Sequence record: PZ402301.1
DNA from: a phage
Length of the DNA stretch: 64,000 nucleotides
Reading direction: 5' to 3' (one strand)
Positions within the stretch are counted from its first letter, which is position 1. Every line of letters begins with the position of its first letter. The notes below the pieces were generated by a model that was not told where the DNA came from, searched no databases, and worked only from the letters and a program-made list of their open reading frames with translations. Position numbers and translations under genes: made by a program. Positions 45,051 to 49,037 of this stretch are shown here, piece by piece.

Positions 45051-45524
45051 TTATTTGATTTGTTTAGCAGACCAAATGCGGTCTTTAATAATTTTTTGGA
45101 TGTCTTCAACATACTCAAGAGAGTGAGCATGTGGATTATCTTTGAAACTATAAGCACGAGCTAGTTTTTGGCCTTCAGTTTTGATTACTAAAAGCTCTTT
45201 AAGGATAGCTTCATATTTAGCGATAATTCCTTTAACAATATTTTTTTCTTGTGCAGCTTTAGGATCTGCTTTAGGAGCAGGTTTACCCGAAGCCTTTGCA
45301 AAAGCAGCACCAGTAGCAACTAAACTTTTCCAGGCCATACTAACCGCATTTCCTGTAAATCCTTCTGCTTTCATGTCGCGAGCAAACTGGAATCGTGATT
45401 CGTCAGAAGCATCTTTATAGGAATATTTACCCGCTGCAATGGCTGCTTTTGCGACAGCTTGAATTTCGGTGCTAGATGCTTCATTTAACACCGCTTCATT
45501 TAAAAATTGAGCATATGATTTCAT
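45051..45524 (-). CDS. Internal-protein-like protein (N-terminal capsid-targeting-like sequence MKSYAQFLNEA)
   Basis: 157 aa, Ala/Lys-rich; late promoter TATAAATA 37 nt upstream; flanked by 30-bp direct repeats. Confidence 0.55.
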   Translation of the reverse strand: MKSYAQFLNEAVLNEASSTEIQAVAKAAIAAGKYSYKDASDESRFQFARDMKAEGFTGNAVSMAWKSLVATGAAFAKASGKPAPKADPKAAQEKNIVKGIIAKYEAILKELLVIKTEGQKLARAYSFKDNPHAHSLEYVEDIQKIIKDRIWSAKQIK

Positions 45525-45560
45525 CTTATTTCCTGTTTTAATTCGTGATTTATACTACTA

Positions 45561-45568
45561 TATTTATA
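45561..45568 (-). promoter_or_regulatory. Late promoter core TATAAATA for the IP-like gene 45051..45524
   Basis: tatttata on plus strand, about 37 nt upstream of the ATG. Confidence 0.55.
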
Positions 45569-45570
45569 CT

Positions 45571-45600
45571 AAAAAGCCCCAACCTTTCGGTCGGGGCTAA
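45571..45600. repeat. 30-bp direct repeat copy B (hairpin-forming) upstream of the IP-like gene
   Basis: aaaaagccccaacctttcggtcggggctaa, identical to 45017-45046. Confidence 0.9.
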
Positions 45601-45604
45601 GCCT

Positions 45605-45905
45605 TGCGGCAACCTTGTCGGGGTTCCACCTGCTAAGGCAAGTGTTTGTACGAAACGCCGGGATTCGAACCCGGTTATTAAGCAGTTGACGCTACTCAAT
45701 ATTTTTTAAAAGGCCATATCTCGACCATATCCGAACGTTCCGTCAAAAACGCTACTCGGCTTACGGCAAAGATATTTCCTCGAATCGATAATTCTGTGCG
45801 CCGTTTCTGCTGTGATGTAAGGGGATATTAACAAATCGTAAAGATTTATTAAGACCAGTCCTTACGCAGGGAACATCAGTCCGACGACTTACCGGTAGCG
45901 ACCCG
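45605..45905 (-). ncRNA. Structured non-coding region, possibly small stable RNAs (T4 rnaC/rnaD equivalents)
   Basis: No convincing ORF; contains a tRNA-like T-arm (ccgggattcgaacccgg at 45658-45674) and several hairpins; position matches T4 species 1/2 RNA genes near tRNA-Arg. Confidence 0.3.
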
Positions 45906-45910
45906 GTTTC

Positions 45911-46261
45911 TTAGTATTCTTTTAAAGCATCAACCTGTTCACGACGTTTACGCCATAAATCAATTACTTCATGCACAGATTCAGCATTTCGAATTGGACG
46001 GCATTTATATAAAGACTTATGATTTTGATATTGTGTAGATAACGGAATTTTATCTAAAAGGTCTTTACGTTCAAAATATTCGTAACCATCTAAACCAAAT
46101 GAACGATTTTTGAGAAATTGCCAATGACCATATTCGTTTTCGACATAAACATAATCTGCATGCTGATAAAGTAAATTAATTACACGTTCAGAAATAACAG
46201 TGTCATTATGATTAAAATAGAATGTTAAATCATGAACTACTAAATAAACATTACCTTTCAT
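45911..46261 (-). CDS. Hypothetical protein
   Basis: 116 aa; ATG with strong SD GTGAGGAAAAT. Confidence 0.45.
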   Translation of the reverse strand: MKGNVYLVVHDLTFYFNHNDTVISERVINLLYQHADYVYVENEYGHWQFLKNRSFGLDGYEYFERKDLLDKIPLSTQYQNHKSLYKCRPIRNAESVHEVIDLWRKRREQVDALKEY

Positions 46262-46279
46262 ATTTTCCTCACTTATAAT

Positions 46280-46355
46280 TGGTCGAGGCAGTAGGGATCG
46301 AACCTACGACCTAGGACTTAGAAGGTCCTTGCTCTTCCTTCTGAGCTATGCCTCG
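46280..46355 (-). tRNA. tRNA-Arg (anticodon UCU)
   Basis: Manual fold of reverse complement: acceptor CGAGGCA/TGCCTCG, anticodon loop CUUCUAA, T-loop TTCGATC, encoded CCA. Confidence 0.8.
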
Positions 46356-46359
46356 GATT

Positions 46360-46434
46360 TGGCGGACATGCATGGATTCGAACCATGGACCAATTGATTA
46401 ACAGTCAACTGCTCTACCACTGAGCTACACATCC
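46360..46434 (-). tRNA. tRNA-Asn (anticodon GUU)
   Basis: Manual fold: acceptor GGATGTG/CATGTCC, D-arm GCTCAGTGGTAGAGC, anticodon loop CUGUUAA, T-loop TTCGAAT, CCA. Confidence 0.75.
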
Positions 46435-46438
46435 AAAT

Positions 46439-46525
46439 TGGTGGGGAGTGATGGAGTCGAACCACCCGAGTCGCAATGACAATGGATTTACAGTCCACAC
46501 CGCTACCTCTACGGGATAACTCCCC
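46439..46525 (-). tRNA. tRNA-Tyr (anticodon GUA), long variable arm
   Basis: Manual fold: acceptor GGGGAGT/ACTCCCC, anticodon loop CUGUAAA, 87 nt with extra arm, CCA. Confidence 0.75.
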
Positions 46526-46538
46526 TTAATTCTTAATT

Positions 46539-46613
46539 TGGTGGCCCTGGGTGGAATTGAACCACCATCTGGCGATTATGAGTCGCTTGCTTGAACCTTC
46601 CAGCTACAGGGCC
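46539..46613 (-). tRNA. tRNA with anticodon CAU (Met, or Ile if lysidine-modified as in T4)
   Basis: Manual fold: acceptor GGCCCTG/CAGGGCC, anticodon loop CUCAUAA, T-loop TTCAATT, CCA. Confidence 0.7.
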
Positions 46614-46621
46614 AAATTTTC

Positions 46622-47104
46622 TTATTTTATGTAATATTTATTTAAAAACTTTCTAGCTTGAGTATGGCTAACATTTATAGCGTTTGCATAATTTTTAATA
46701 AAACCTCGTTCATCCATATTAAAATTTTCTAATATTTTTAATCGTCTAGTTATCTCATCTTGACTTAAGGTACTTGCATTATTTTTAGAAATTTTTTCTA
46801 AGGACTGCGCCGAGTGTTTTCGACCATTAAAATTAAAATTTTTAGATTTTGGAGGAAATCTAGCATTTAGTCTCGCATCTTTTGTATTTTGATTATTAGT
46901 TGCGCAATATATGTTATTTAATGAATATGGTCCTTTATCGCCGAAACGGCACATGCAATATTCATGACCCTTTCTTCCACGCTTATCATAATTTCCCGTT
47001 GATTTCCACCAATGCAGCCATTCATCAAAAGTTAAATTCCATTCAATGTTTCTACGTATAGCAGAATTCCGCTGAGAAATATATTTTGCATAATCTTCTT
47101 TCAT
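46622..47104 (-). CDS. Homing-endonuclease-like protein (NUMOD3-type motif, C-terminal HTH-like tail)
   Basis: About 160 aa; NGRKHSAQSLEKISK resembles NUMOD3; C-terminus NVSHTQARKFLNKY parallels the segB-like ORF; catalytic domain type unclear. Confidence 0.5.
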   Translation of the reverse strand: MKEDYAKYISQRNSAIRRNIEWNLTFDEWLHWWKSTGNYDKRGRKGHEYCMCRFGDKGPYSLNNIYCATNNQNTKDARLNARFPPKSKNFNFNGRKHSAQSLEKISKNNASTLSQDEITRRLKILENFNMDERGFIKNYANAINVSHTQARKFLNKYYIK

Positions 47105-47151
47105 CACAAATTTCTCTACTTATTCAATACACTGAGCTAAATCAGCAAAAC

Positions 47152-47241
47152 TGGCGGAGGCGATAGGATTTGAACCTATGAGTCGCCGGAGCGACTGCCG
47201 GTTTTCAAGACCGGTGCATTAAACCACTCTGCCACGCCTCC
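47152..47241 (-). tRNA. tRNA-Ser (anticodon UGA), long variable arm
   Basis: Manual fold: acceptor GGAGGCG/CGCCTCC, anticodon loop CUUGAAA, T-loop TTCAAAT, CCA. Confidence 0.8.
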
Positions 47242-47247
47242 AAATAT

Positions 47248-47856
47248 TTATATACTGTTAATTTGATTTAGAATTCTTTTTGCTTGAGTATGACTTACTC
47301 CAATATGCTTAGCATATTTATATAATTCACCACGCTTAGAAAAATCATATAATTTAGAAATTTCTATTCTTCTTTTTCTTTCATCCGCAGAAACTTTTGC
47401 TTCGTTTGCTTTTGCTATTTTACGTTTAGCTTCTTGAGAATGAGTTTTACCAGCAAAGCCATTCTTCATTAATCCATTTGAAGACCATCCTTTTAATTTT
47501 CCATTAGAATGAGCCTTTTTAACACCCAATGAAATTAATTCGCGTTGCTGATCTGTCATAGGATAATTATTTATATGGTCCCATCCACCTTCACCGCCAA
47601 GTTTTAAATTATACACATCTGGTCTATTTAAAAACTCTTCTGTGACAATATTTTTCTCGGCTTCAAGCATAGATTCTTTATCATCAAAATACTCTAATAT
47701 TTCTTTAGAGAAATTTTCTATACCATACTTGTCTTGGGCTCTTTTTAATAATTTACCAGAACCCATATATCCATCATCTAAATTTTCGGTAGAATGCACA
47801 CCAATATAAATTTTATTATTAATTTTATTTGTTATTTTATAAAGATAAAAATGCAT
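47248..47856 (-). mobile_element. segB: GIY-YIG homing endonuclease gene (SegB-like) inside the tRNA cluster
   Basis: Start taken at MHFYLYKITNKINNKIYIGVHST (GIY-YIG core); NUMOD3-like GKTHSQEAKRKIAKA; C-terminal HTH-like tail; T4 segB also sits in the tRNA cluster. Confidence 0.7.
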
Positions 47857-47902
47857 ATCAGTCCCTAATAAAGAACTGAGCGTCTCACGACGAGTCATAA
47901 AT

Positions 47903-47976
<74 letters not shown>

Positions 47977-47981
47977 AAATT

Positions 47982-48068
47982 TGGTGCGAGAAGTGGGACT
48001 CGAACCCACAAGGAAATCATTCCGCAGCATTTTAAGTGCTGTGCCTTTACCAATTTGACCATTCTCGC
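47982..48068 (-). tRNA. tRNA-Leu (anticodon UAA), long variable arm
   Basis: Manual fold: acceptor GCGAGAA/TTCTCGC, anticodon loop CUUAAAA, T-loop TTCGAGT, CCA. Confidence 0.8.
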
Positions 48069-48069
48069 G

Positions 48070-48142
48070 CTGGGAATAAAGGACTTGAACCTTTGCATCT
48101 AGCAGTCAAAGTGCTATGCCTTACCAACTTGGCTAATTCCCA
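48070..48142 (-). tRNA. tRNA-Gln (anticodon UUG), CCA not encoded
   Basis: Manual fold: acceptor TGGGAAT/ATTCCCA, anticodon loop CUUUGAC; 3' end abuts tRNA-Leu 5' end as in the T4 Gln-Leu dimeric precursor. Confidence 0.8.
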
Positions 48143-48228
48143 ATTATTAACAAAGGCTCTCAGGAAAGAACCCTTGATGATAGAGGGTATTAATCAATGC
48201 GATATGAGTTAATAATAACAAATAATTC

Positions 48229-48753
48229 TTAAAGCAAATTAAACATTTTAACGGTCGGCAAAACAATTTCTTCTTCTATATAAGAGTATTTAACACTCTC
48301 AACTACACGCAAAAAATCATAATCATAATACTCAGAAGCATTACCTAAAATATTAATAAGTCCTTCAAGCACTTTATTACCATTCACAAAGAATAAGTCA
48401 AATACACGTTCTTCATCTTCTTCAGATTTATTACCAAGGTCAACTTCTATATCAAAGACCTTTTTAATGAATTCTGGATAAAGTTGGTCTGAGAACAGTC
48501 CTTCAACCAAGTATTCATAGATAAAAAGCGATTGCTCACTGAACGAAGCATTACCACAATAGTGCTCAATTTTAGTACTAGAATGTCGGCTTTTAAACTT
48601 CTTTAAAAGATATTGGAATTGTAAGATTTCATGCTCTTCTACGCCAAACAGTGTTTTGGTTTTATAGTTGTCACCATCATTTTCCCAGGTAGTGACATCA
48701 ATTACGTAACCCTGCGGAATTGTAGTACCCAAACAAATATTCATTTTCACCAC
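48229..48753 (-). CDS. Hypothetical protein
   Basis: 174 aa ORF upstream of the tRNA cluster. Confidence 0.45.
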   Translation of the reverse strand: MVKMNICLGTTIPQGYVIDVTTWENDGDNYKTKTLFGVEEHEILQFQYLLKKFKSRHSSTKIEHYCGNASFSEQSLFIYEYLVEGLFSDQLYPEFIKKVFDIEVDLGNKSEEDEERVFDLFFVNGNKVLEGLINILGNASEYYDYDFLRVVESVKYSYIEEEIVLPTVKMFNLL

Positions 48754-49037
48754 GCTGCATTAATGTAAGTATATTTAATACATTCAAGACCCAAAGGATT
48801 CTTGAAAATATCATATTCAAGAGGACCTTTTTCTGTTTCAATAAAGAAATCAAAATTTACTGTATTAAATTTACGGTCTTCCTTCACTAATTTAACTTGA
48901 GAAGATGAACGGTCAATGTAAACCTTTTCAACTTCAAAACATGTTAAAATACCATAATCATCAATCAAAGCTTTAGCCGCGTCTTGATCGTATTTATATC
49001 CATTTTCAATGGATGATACTTTAGCATAAAGAATCAT
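48747..49037 (-). CDS. Hypothetical protein
   Basis: 96 aa ORF. Confidence 0.4.
   Translation of the reverse strand: MILYAKVSSIENGYKYDQDAAKALIDDYGILTCFEVEKVYIDRSSSQVKLVKEDRKFNTVNFDFFIETEKGPLEYDIFKNPLGLECIKYTYINAAW

What the first reader, a model, noticed from the sequence alone, without database searches (positions are those of the whole stretch)
46622..47856. Two homing-endonuclease-like genes intercalated among the tRNA genes
ORF 47248..47856 has a GIY-YIG N-terminus (FYLYKITNKINNKIYIGVHST), a NUMOD3-like motif and an HTH-like tail, like SegB. ORF 46622..47104 is shorter with a NUMOD3-like motif (NGRKHSAQSLEKISK) and a closely parallel tail (NVSHTQARKFLNKY vs GVSHTQAKRILNQI), but an unclear catalytic domain. 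One lies between tRNA-Gly and tRNA-Ser, the other between tRNA-Ser and the CAU tRNA. The second ORF may be a degenerate or novel endonuclease. This may explain why the tRNA set differs from T4.
Basis: partly seen in the sequence, partly recalled or inferred. Interest (0 to 1): 0.5.

Follow-up and report, generated by a model that had tools for sequence, protein, structure and literature searches.

The report
Two homing-endonuclease genes replacing phage tRNAs
In this T4-like phage, two small selfish DNA-cutting-enzyme genes sit exactly where related phages carry the proline and threonine tRNA genes; one is a known SegB-type enzyme with a swapped DNA-binding half, and the other has a widespread, uncatalogued domain that is probably a nuclease.

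Summary
Both ORFs lie on the minus strand at the stated coordinates, between tRNA-Gly and tRNA-Ser and between tRNA-Ser and tRNA(CAU).

ORF2 (47248-47856) is the RB51/HY01-type "SegB-like" GIY-YIG gene.
- Its catalytic half is essentially identical to T4 SegB, which is an experimentally active enzyme.
- Its C-terminal DNA-binding half is unrelated to T4 SegB.
- It occupies the tRNA-Pro slot.

ORF1 (46622-47104) is an intact copy of T2L "trna.1", an ORF of unknown function since 2008.
- It replaces all but the first 16 nt of tRNA-Thr.
- Its C-terminal NUMOD3-like/HTH half is homologous to ORF2's (E 2e-15).
- Its N-terminal domain has no Pfam or NCBIfam model but matches over 7,000 protein-cluster representatives.
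- That domain is predicted to fold as a beta-beta-alpha-metal domain closest to the His-less HNH enzyme PacI. It has invariant R, D, Y, N, N and no conserved His.

Both genes are under purifying selection. In nine T4-like lineages, trna.1 relatives always sit between two tRNA genes. In Aeromonas phage 31 the gene is a clean insertion.

Most likely these are two free-standing homing endonuclease genes. ORF2 is ordinary. ORF1 is a probable new variant of a known kind.

The parts
47248..47856 (-). ORF2: a 202-aa SegB-like GIY-YIG free-standing homing endonuclease gene of the RB51/HY01 type. The ORF is open upstream to an ATG at 47898, but that start is unlikely.
   Evidence: (phrog_314 homing endonuclease, E 1.6e-55). 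dN/dS is 0.05 against RB51.
47566..47843 (-). Catalytic-domain segment of ORF2 that is nearly identical in DNA to T4 segB (about 5 mismatches in about 280 nt). The similarity ends abruptly on both sides.
   Evidence: DNA alignment of the window, T4 segB and Klebsiella RCIP0032; protein.
47248..47559 (-). C-terminal DNA-binding half of ORF2. It holds a NUMOD3-like motif at about 47413-47457, followed by helices. It is unrelated to the T4 SegB C-terminus and homologous to the ORF1 C-terminus.
47858..47879 (-). Predicted 9-bp RNA hairpin in the ORF2 leader that sequesters the Shine-Dalgarno AGGGA just upstream of the ATG.
   Evidence: MFE -14.1 kcal/mol, z -2.0. The same hairpin occurs in the Klebsiella phage homologue, with pair-preserving changes. 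T4 segB is reported to be regulated this way (PMC2988022).
46622..47104 (-). ORF1: an intact 160-aa homologue of T2L trna.1 (phrog_16521). It is a putative free-standing homing endonuclease.
   Evidence: dN/dS is 0.08-0.10.
46862..47104 (-). N-terminal domain of ORF1, with a predicted PacI-like beta-beta-alpha-metal fold. Invariant residues are W30, W34, M52, R54, D57, G59, Y61, N65 and N74 (numbering from the GTG at 47107). No His is conserved.
46784..46828 (-). NUMOD3-like motif of ORF1 (NGRKHSAQSLEKISK).
   Evidence: It aligns with the NUMOD3 motif of ORF2. The relative P0005 carries PF07460.
46634..46762 (-). C-terminal helical (HTH-like) DNA-binding tail of ORF1.
47131..47146 (-). Remnant of the first 16 nt of tRNA-Thr (GCTGATTTAGCTCAGT), left upstream of ORF1.
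   Evidence: alignment with RB51 and T4 tRNA-Thr.
47152..47241 (-). tRNA-Ser(UGA), lying between the two ORFs.
47903..47976 (-). tRNA-Gly(UCC), the upstream boundary of the ORF2 cassette.
46539..46613 (-). tRNA(CAU), the homologue of T4 tRNA-Ile. It is the downstream boundary of the ORF1 cassette.

Best explanation
The window comes from a Tequatrovirus (T4-like phage) whose tRNA cluster carries two free-standing homing-endonuclease genes, each in a slot where related phages have a tRNA gene.

ORF2
- It is a two-domain GIY-YIG enzyme.
- Its catalytic domain is the same as that of the experimentally active T4 SegB.
- This domain is joined to a different NUMOD3-like/HTH DNA-binding domain, so it should cut DNA by the same chemistry at a different recognition sequence.
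- It fills the tRNA-Gly to tRNA-Ser interval in place of tRNA-Pro.
- Inferred: it cuts phage genomes that still have the Gly-Pro-Ser arrangement. Repair from the ORF2-bearing genome then copies the gene in and removes tRNA-Pro.

ORF1 (T2L trna.1, intact here)
- It has a related NUMOD3-like/HTH DNA-binding domain.
- This is joined to an uncatalogued N-terminal domain predicted to be a His-less beta-beta-alpha-metal nuclease like PacI.
- Inferred: Y61 in the loop between the two strands acts as base or nucleophile, and D57 with N74 (or N65) holds the metal.
- It replaced tRNA-Thr, leaving a 16-nt stub.
- Inferred: it targets the Ser-Thr-Ile region of phages that lack it.

What is shown and what is inferred
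- Shown: gene structures, homologies, exact replacement boundaries, purifying selection, presence/absence polymorphism, and residence in tRNA clusters across genera.
- Inferred: nuclease activity of ORF1, the target sites of both enzymes, and homing itself.
For: ORF2
- Pfam GIY-YIG is above its cut-off, and phrog_314 'homing endonuclease' scores E 1.6e-55.
- Residues 6-96 are identical to T4 SegB, and the rest is unrelated.
- The DNA similarity to T4 segB stops abruptly on both sides.
- T4 SegB is a proven site-specific homing endonuclease that acts in this tRNA region (PMC2330249).
- The cassette boundaries are the same in RB51, and tRNA-Pro is absent.
- A full-length homologue, including the leader, lies between tRNA-Gly and tRNA-Pro in Klebsiella phage RCIP0032.
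- dN/dS is 0.05.

ORF1
- The C-terminal half is homologous to the ORF2 DNA-binding half.
- R54, D57, Y61, N65 and N74 are invariant across 173 domains.
- PacI uses a loop Tyr in place of His, and Asp plus Asn for the metal (PMC5714182, PMC4081073).
- 10 of 39 diverse N-domains also match phrog_3118 'HNH endonuclease'.
- Partner domains in relatives are NUMOD3, sigma-70 region 4 HTH and Endonuclease VII.
- dN/dS is 0.08-0.10, and the ORF is intact in 7 of 8 phages.

Mobility
- A tRNA-Thr stub remains upstream of ORF1.
- Phage 31 has a clean insertion of about 495 nt in the Asn|Tyr spacer relative to 44RR2.8t and L9-6.
- Relatives in nine Straboviridae lineages each sit between a different pair of tRNA genes.
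- Non-T4 relatives lie on the opposite strand between capsid, portal and terminase genes.
Against: - No experiment has shown nuclease activity for any member of the ORF1 family.
- The N-domain lacks the catalytic His of HNH enzymes and the Cys4 zinc sites of PacI.
- Sequence searches do not link the N-domain to any solved nuclease: HMM against PDB, Pfam, Foldseek against PDB at E >= 0.55.
- I could not inspect the superposition, so the equivalence of Y61 to the PacI tyrosine is not shown.
- Some relatives carry the domain twice, or together with an Endonuclease VII domain. That would also fit a non-catalytic DNA-binding role.
- In T4 x T2L crosses, trna.1 was lost, not spread (PMC2330249). The T2L copy is frameshifted, however.
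- The target sites of both enzymes are unknown.
Confidence: 0.62

Rival explanations
1. ORF1 is a DNA-binding protein without nuclease activity. Its N-domain would be an inactivated His-Me finger, as in Smad MH1. The protein might act as a regulator, or as a protective factor that occupies tRNA-gene sites recognised by Seg-type enzymes through its related DNA-binding domain.
For: - No His is conserved.
- There is no sequence-level link to any nuclease in PDB or Pfam.
- The domain occurs in tandem and alongside a bona fide Endonuclease VII domain.
- Inactive His-Me fingers are known (PMC5714182).
- The ORF1 DNA-binding domain is homologous to that of the neighbouring GIY-YIG enzyme.
Against: - Five polar residues are invariant (R54, D57, Y61, N65, N74). 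They lie in and around the loop, second strand and helix, where His-Me active sites lie.
- The closest fold is PacI, which is active without His.
- The presence/absence and insertion behaviour is typical of homing endonuclease genes.
- There is a match to phrog_3118 'HNH endonuclease'.
Confidence: 0.2
2. ORF1-family proteins of T4-like phages act on tRNA or its precursors (processing, repair or cleavage) and not on DNA. That would be why they are always encoded inside tRNA clusters.
For: In nine lineages the gene lies between two tRNA genes and is co-oriented with them. Its 3' end often overlaps the next tRNA.
Against: - Relatives that share the N-domain in other phages are nowhere near tRNA genes.
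- The C-terminal domain is homologous to the DNA-binding domain of a GIY-YIG homing endonuclease.
- SegB shows that tRNA genes are used as DNA targets by homing enzymes (PMC2330249).
- The gene is dispensable and sporadically distributed: 26 of about 1,040 records that match this region.
Confidence: 0.07
3. One or both ORFs are decaying relics with no present function. For ORF2 this is the 'truncated SegB-like protein' reading of the RB51 record.
For: - RB51 annotates ORF2 as truncated.
- The T2/T2L copy of ORF1 carries two 2-nt deletions.
Against: - Both window copies are intact, with dN/dS of 0.05-0.10.
- ORF2 is not truncated. It has a complete alternative C-terminal domain that is conserved in Klebsiella and Raoultella phages.
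- ORF1 is intact in 7 of 8 phages compared.
Confidence: 0.05

Closest known systems
T4 SegB (GIY-YIG free-standing homing endonuclease of the T4 tRNA region; PMC2330249)
   Same: - The ORF2 catalytic domain is identical in amino acid sequence over residues 6-96, and about 98% identical in DNA.
- ORF2 also lies in the tRNA cluster on the same strand.
- It also has a leader hairpin over the ribosome-binding site.
   Different: - The C-terminal DNA-binding half is unrelated.
- ORF2 sits in the Gly|Ser slot in place of tRNA-Pro. T4 segB sits between tRNA-Ile and tRNA-Arg.
- The recognition sequence is therefore probably different, and it has not been tested.
RB51/RB18/HY01/AR1 'SegB-like' genes, variously annotated as truncated SegB-like, segD or homing endonuclease
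   Same: This is the same gene at 98-99% DNA identity, with the same boundaries and the same slot.
   Different: In those phages the next slot holds tRNA-Thr. Here it holds ORF1.
T2L trna.1 (AJ880101; an 'ORF of unknown function' in PMC2330249)
   Same: This is the same gene in the same slot, between tRNA-Ser and tRNA(CAU), at 97.8% DNA identity.
   Different: The T2/T2L copy has two 2-nt deletions that remove the first ~28 residues of the reading frame. The window copy is intact.
PacI restriction endonuclease (His-less HNH / beta-beta-alpha-metal enzyme; PDB 3m7k, 3ldy)
   Same: - Both lack the catalytic His.
- ORF1 has an invariant Tyr between the two strands, plus invariant Asp and Asn. PacI uses Tyr, Asp and Asn.
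   Different: - Sequence identity is 16%, and no sequence-profile link was found.
- ORF1 has no Cys4 zinc sites.
- PacI is a homodimeric restriction enzyme without NUMOD3/HTH modules.
I-TevI and other modular phage homing endonucleases (catalytic domain + NUMOD/zinc-finger linker + HTH)
   Same: Both have a two-part design: an N-terminal nuclease module is tethered by a flexible linker to a NUMOD3-like motif and a helix-turn-helix module. Modules are exchanged between enzymes.
   Different: I-TevI is intron-encoded and targets the td gene. ORF1's nuclease module is not GIY-YIG or canonical HNH.

Membership tests
GIY-YIG nuclease superfamily (ORF2) | GIY-YIG catalytic domain profile match above the curated threshold | tested here: met
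   PF01541 scores 26.8 bits against a 22.6 cut-off. PF19835 SegE_GIY-YIG scores 25.9 against 25.
GIY-YIG nuclease superfamily (ORF2) | Catalytic residues as in an experimentally active member | tested here: met
   Residues 6-96 are identical to T4 SegB. SegB activity is shown in PMC2330249.
T4 SegB orthologue (ORF2) | Same DNA-binding domain, and hence the same recognition site | tested here: not met
   There is no similarity beyond residue ~97.
T4 SegB orthologue (ORF2) | Same genomic slot (between tRNA-Ile and tRNA-Arg) | tested here: not met
   ORF2 lies between tRNA-Gly and tRNA-Ser.
Free-standing homing endonuclease gene (both ORFs) | Presence/absence polymorphism with sharp boundaries between closely related genomes | tested here: met
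   Searches show this for the window. Searches show it for the ORF1 family in phage 31 against 44RR2.8t and L9-6.
Free-standing homing endonuclease gene (both ORFs) | The enzyme cleaves the cognate allele that lacks the gene, and is over-inherited in mixed infection | not testable with these tools
   This needs cleavage assays and phage crosses. The only published cross used the frameshifted T2L copy of trna.1.
Free-standing homing endonuclease gene (ORF1) | Co-conversion of flanking markers with the gene | tested here: inconclusive
   The window tRNA-Ser matches ORF1-bearing phages (0 differences), against 1 difference for HY01 and 5 for RB51. The whole region is a patchwork of alleles.
HNH / His-Me finger (ORF1 N-domain) | Beta-beta-alpha fold | tested here: met
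   [not shown]
HNH / His-Me finger (ORF1 N-domain) | Conserved catalytic histidine at the end of strand 1 | tested here: not met
   No His is conserved. The equivalent position is the invariant R54.
HNH / His-Me finger (ORF1 N-domain) | Match to a curated HNH profile | tested here: not met
   No member matches a Pfam HNH family. The only link is a PHROG family annotated 'HNH endonuclease' (phrog_3118), matched by 10 of 39 members.
PacI-like His-less group (ORF1 N-domain) | Tyrosine in the loop between the strands substituting for His; Asp and Asn as metal ligands | tested here: inconclusive
   Y61, D57, N65 and N74 are invariant, and Y61 and D57 lie in that loop. The residue-by-residue superposition on PacI could not be inspected.
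PacI-like His-less group (ORF1 N-domain) | Two Cys4 zinc sites flanking the active site | tested here: not met
   Only three Cys are present (C51, C53, C68), each conserved in about half of the family.
NUMOD3 motif | Pfam PF07460 match | tested here: inconclusive
   ORF2 scores 20.1 bits against a 20.4 cut-off. ORF1 has no direct hit, but its motif aligns with ORF2's, and the relatives P0005 and P0026 carry PF07460.

The most novel reading that the evidence does not exclude
The ORF1 N-terminal domain defines a very large nuclease family with no Pfam or NCBIfam model and only an unknown-function PHROG (over 7,000 cluster representatives at 50% identity). The family would be His-less, tyrosine-dependent beta-beta-alpha-metal nucleases related to PacI. 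It would serve as the catalytic module of a new class of phage homing endonucleases. Its T4-like branch, by sharing a DNA-binding module with Seg-type GIY-YIG enzymes, would have specialised on junctions between tRNA genes. That branch would drive the gain and loss of individual tRNA genes in phage tRNA clusters.
Probability: 0.45. Interest if true: 0.6.

Novelty: new variant of a known kind. Interest (0 to 1): 0.45.

Why it matters
Homing endonucleases in the T-even tRNA region are already a textbook case (SegB). The general picture is therefore not new, and ORF2 is already annotated in dozens of genomes. Three points go beyond the existing annotation.

1. The differences in tRNA content among T4, T2, RB51 and this phage reduce to three slots. 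In each slot a selfish endonuclease gene and one or more tRNA genes are mutually exclusive.
   - tRNA-Pro or ORF2
   - tRNA-Thr or ORF1
   - tRNA-Tyr and tRNA-Asn, or segB

   This gives a concrete mechanism for tRNA gene turnover in phages.

2. ORF2 shows domain-level recombination. A SegB catalytic module has recently been joined to a different DNA-binding module. That is how new specificities may arise.

3. trna.1 has been an 'ORF of unknown function' since 2008. It now has a testable prediction: a PacI-like nuclease that uses Tyr instead of His. It belongs to a family of thousands of phage proteins for which neither Pfam nor NCBIfam has a model.

If ORF1 is active, it would add a new catalytic type to the phage homing endonucleases. 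It could also be a source of new sequence-specific nucleases.

Tried and rejected
1. I tested whether the conserved ORF2 leader is a remnant of the 5' part of tRNA-Pro, by analogy with the tRNA-Thr stub. The local alignment score was 25, against a shuffle mean of 18.1, sd 3.6 and maximum 32. This is not significant, so I dropped it.
2. I looked for the T4 late-promoter motif TATAAATA near the ORFs. There are 14 matches in the window against 10.4 expected, with 18 of 100 shuffles as high. There is no enrichment.
3. I searched for a sequence-level link between the ORF1 N-domain and solved structures or Pfam.
   - phmmer and an HMM of 39 diverse domains against PDB gave only noise.
   - Pfam scans of ORF1, 10 relatives and all 39 domains gave nothing for the domain.
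   - NCBIfam gave nothing.
4. Foldseek of the full-length model against PDB gave no hit below E 0.55. PacI appeared only at E 1.2 and probability 0.75. The AlphaFold-database library was unavailable.
5. A multi-genome MAFFT alignment used to count SNPs per feature mis-aligned paralogous tRNAs. I replaced it with per-feature BLAST.
6. I first thought the ORF2+ORF1 combination was unique, because no record among 50,697 phage genomes has it. It is present on two metagenome contigs, so it is rare but not unique.
7. The 44RR2.8t ORF at the neighbouring tRNA junction is not a member of the ORF1 family. It is a T5orf172/MUG113 protein.
8. The neighbouring ORFs at 45911-46261 (T2L trna.2 type), 48229-48753 and 45051-45524 have no nuclease signature.
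Full report
**Observation**

The region lies on the minus strand of a T4-like phage genome.
- Megablast of 45500-48800 finds 1,044 phage records, almost all Tequatrovirus.
- The 24-kb surroundings are closest to Escherichia phage HY01: 97.1% identity over 94%.

ARAGORN and Rfam agree on the tRNA genes. In the direction of transcription they are:
- Gln 48069-48142
- Leu 47982-48068
- Gly 47903-47976
- Ser 47152-47241
- CAU tRNA 46539-46613
- then Tyr, Asn and Arg

The two ORFs fill the Gly|Ser and Ser|CAU gaps.

**Comparison with reference phages**

The gene orders are:
- T4: Gln Leu Gly Pro Ser Thr Ile segB Arg
- T2L: Gln Leu Gly Pro Ser trna.1 Met(CAU) Tyr Asn Arg trna.2
- RB51: Gln Leu Gly [SegB-like] Ser Thr Ile Tyr Asn Arg
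- This window: Gln Leu Gly [ORF2] Ser [ORF1] CAU Tyr Asn Arg

An alignment of the four shows two exact replacements.
- The ORF2 cassette replaces the spacer and the whole of tRNA-Pro. It runs from just after the 3' end of tRNA-Gly to just before the 5' end of tRNA-Ser. The boundaries are the same as in RB51.
- The ORF1 cassette replaces tRNA-Thr except for its first 16 nt (GCTGATTTAGCTCAGT, 47131-47146). It ends 8 nt before the CAU tRNA.

Every difference from T4's tRNA set therefore maps onto an endonuclease-like gene.

**ORF2**

Profile matches:
- Pfam GIY-YIG and SegE_GIY-YIG are above their cut-offs. NUMOD3 is 0.3 bit below its cut-off.
- PHROG phrog_314 'homing endonuclease' scores E 1.6e-55.
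- NCBIfam 'group I intron endonuclease' is below its cut-off.

Relation to T4 SegB:
- The protein is identical to T4 SegB over residues 6-96 and unrelated afterwards.
- At DNA level, about 280 nt (47566-47843) differ from T4 segB at about five positions. The similarity stops abruptly at both ends.

Distribution:
- The full-length gene, including its leader, has a homologue at lower identity in Klebsiella phage RCIP0032. There it is an unannotated 220-aa ORF between tRNA-Gly and tRNA-Pro.
- The C-terminal half occurs at 95% identity or more in 56 phage records, and at about 67% in Klebsiella and Raoultella phages.

ORF2 is therefore not a 'truncated SegB', as RB51 annotates it, and it is not segD, as AR1 and HY01 annotate it. 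It is a complete two-domain enzyme. Its catalytic module has recently been exchanged with that of T4 segB, or the reverse.

Two further points:
- dN/dS against RB51 is 0.05.
- The leader folds into a 9-bp hairpin that buries the Shine-Dalgarno sequence (47858-47879). The hairpin is kept in the Klebsiella homologue. This is the mode of control described for T4 segB (PMC2988022).

**ORF1: identity and integrity**

ORF1 is the T2L gene trna.1. It is 97.8% identical in DNA and lies in the same slot. The SegB paper calls it an ORF of unknown function (PMC2330249).

- In T2 and T2L the gene carries two 2-nt deletions near the 5' end. Only a 133-aa N-terminally shortened product is annotated there.
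- In the window and in 7 of 8 phages compared, it is intact.
- dN/dS is 0.08-0.10 against the more distant copies.
- It is present in 26 of the 50,697 phage records and is nearly always annotated 'hypothetical protein'.

**ORF1: domains**

The C-terminal half holds the NUMOD3-like motif and a helical tail. It is homologous to the C-terminal half of ORF2 (E 2e-15).

The N-terminal ~80 residues match nothing in Pfam, NCBIfam or PDB sequences. The only PHROG is phrog_16521, of unknown function.

A profile search of 1.84 billion representatives finds 7,263 proteins at E <= 1e-3 and 5,257 at E <= 1e-10. Among them:
- Some carry the domain twice.
- Partner domains include NUMOD3, a sigma-70 region 4 type HTH and, in one case, Endonuclease VII.

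Across 173 domains, the invariant or nearly invariant positions are W30, W34, M52, R54, D57, G59, Y61, N65 and N74. No His is conserved.

**ORF1: predicted fold**

AlphaFold models give two helices, then strand 50-54, a loop, strand 66-70 and helix 71-80. The full-length model has pLDDT 86, and the domain-only model has pLDDT 95.5.

PacI is the known case in which the catalytic His is absent. A Tyr in the loop between the strands takes its role, and the metal is held by Asp and Asn (PMC5714182; PMC4081073). The invariant Y61, D57 and N74/N65 of ORF1 fit that pattern.

Ten of 39 diverse N-domains also match phrog_3118 'HNH endonuclease'.

Evidence that weakens this assignment:
- Foldseek finds nothing significant.
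- The zinc sites of PacI are missing.
- I could not inspect the superposition.

I therefore rate a beta-beta-alpha-metal fold as likely and catalytic activity as probable but unproven.

**Behaviour of the ORF1 family**

In every T4-like lineage examined, the homologue lies between two tRNA genes and is co-oriented with them. Its 3' end abuts or overlaps the next tRNA gene. The tRNA pair differs from lineage to lineage:

| Lineage (phage) | Flanking tRNA pair |
|---|---|
| Tequatrovirus (this window, T2) | Ser / CAU |
| Gelderlandvirus (S16) | Gln / Arg |
| Jiaodavirus (KP185) | Tyr / Lys |
| Kagamiyamavirus (EcS1) | Asp / Lys |
| Karamvirus (CkP1) | Leu / Thr (ARAGORN calls it Tyr) |
| Klebsiella phage CP-p-KP-21072 | Leu / Thr |
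| Biquartavirus (phage 31) | Asn / Tyr |
| Chrysonvirus (phiAS5) | Asn / Ile |
| Tulanevirus (60AhydR15PP) | Tyr / Lys |

In Biquartavirus the gene is a clean insertion of about 495 nt in the 13-nt Asn|Tyr spacer of phage 31. It is absent from 44RR2.8t and L9-6, whose flanks are 98-99% identical.

More distant relatives share only the N-domain. They are not near tRNA genes. They sit on the opposite strand between capsid, portal and terminase genes of small phages, next to an HNH_3 gene in one case. All of this is the behaviour of free-standing homing endonuclease genes.

**Combination and mosaicism**

- No record among the 50,697 phage genomes has ORF2 and ORF1 together. All ORF1-bearing phages I fetched keep tRNA-Pro.
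- Two metagenome contigs do have the same arrangement, at 97.2% and 94.9% identity. The combination is therefore rare but not unique.
- Salmonella phage pSe_SNUABM_01 combines trna.1 with a T4-type segB. The slots assort independently.
- The tRNA genes themselves are a patchwork:
  - tRNA-Asn is of the RB51 type, with 16 differences from T2L and HY01.
  - tRNA-Arg is of the HY01 type, with 18 differences from RB51.
  - tRNA-Gln is of the T4/T2 type.

  This fits frequent break-induced recombination in this region.

**Verdict**

- ORF2 is an ordinary, already annotated gene. The useful correction is that it is a domain-swapped enzyme, not a truncated one.
- ORF1 is the more interesting part. 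It is a conserved, selected, mobile gene whose N-terminal domain belongs to a very large uncatalogued family. That domain is most likely a PacI-like nuclease that works without histidine.
- Enzymatic activity, target sites and homing remain to be shown.

Noticed in passing
L001 (T2L AJ880101) 1387-1868; all T2 records: The T2/T2L copy of trna.1 has two 2-nt deletions near its 5' end relative to the window and seven other phages. The full-length frame is therefore broken, and only a 133-aa N-terminally shortened product is annotated. The published T4 x T2L cross thus tested a probably defective copy.
   Followed up: yes
window 46360-46434 (tRNA-Asn), 46280-46355 (tRNA-Arg), 48069-48142 (tRNA-Gln): Individual tRNA genes exist as sharply different alleles, shuffled gene by gene among close relatives. 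The window's Asn matches the RB51 type (16 differences from T2L and HY01). Its Arg matches the HY01 type (18 differences from RB51). Its Gln matches the T4/T2 type (8-9 differences from HY01 and RB51). The Asn differences include compensatory changes in the T-stem, next to the SegB core motif.
   Followed up: partly
window 47858-47879 (minus strand); L005 1066-1088: The ORF2 leader forms a 9-bp hairpin that buries the Shine-Dalgarno sequence one nucleotide before the ATG. The Klebsiella phage homologue keeps it, with pair-preserving changes (A-U to G-U, U-G to U-A).
   Followed up: partly
L005 (Klebsiella phage RCIP0032) 1090-1752; L008 (phage F26) 1509-1994; L009 (WL-3) 1509-1994: Several records have annotation gaps or errors. 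The 220-aa SegB-like ORF of RCIP0032 is unannotated. The intact trna.1 of F26 is unannotated. WL-3 annotates only the last 333 nt of it. AR1 and HY01 call ORF2 'segD', and RB51 calls it 'truncated'.
   Followed up: partly
L039 (Aeromonas phage 44RR2.8t) 829-1383; L040 (L9-6): At the Tyr|Lys junction of 44RR2.8t sits a different inserted ORF of 184 aa, with T5orf172/MUG113 domains. It is absent from L9-6. tRNA clusters of T4-like phages thus collect several unrelated endonuclease-like gene families.
   Followed up: partly
window 45648-45743 (minus strand): ARAGORN reports a 'tRNA-???' here that Rfam does not call at gathering threshold. The stretch corresponds to the rnaC/rnaD (species I/II stable RNA) region of T4 and T2L.
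   Followed up: partly
window 48229-48753 (minus strand): The 174-aa ORF just upstream of tRNA-Gln (phrog_2290, unknown function) is another variable cassette. Among the phages compared it is present only in ECO78 and VIPECOOM01. It is absent from HY01, RB51 and T4.
   Followed up: no
P0016 (455 aa, metagenome), P0017-P0028: Some relatives carry two tandem copies of the ORF1-type N-domain. P0016 follows them with four repeats of a short 'VITPxGxFxS...GWRY' module. One relative (P0062) joins the domain to an Endonuclease VII domain.
   Followed up: no
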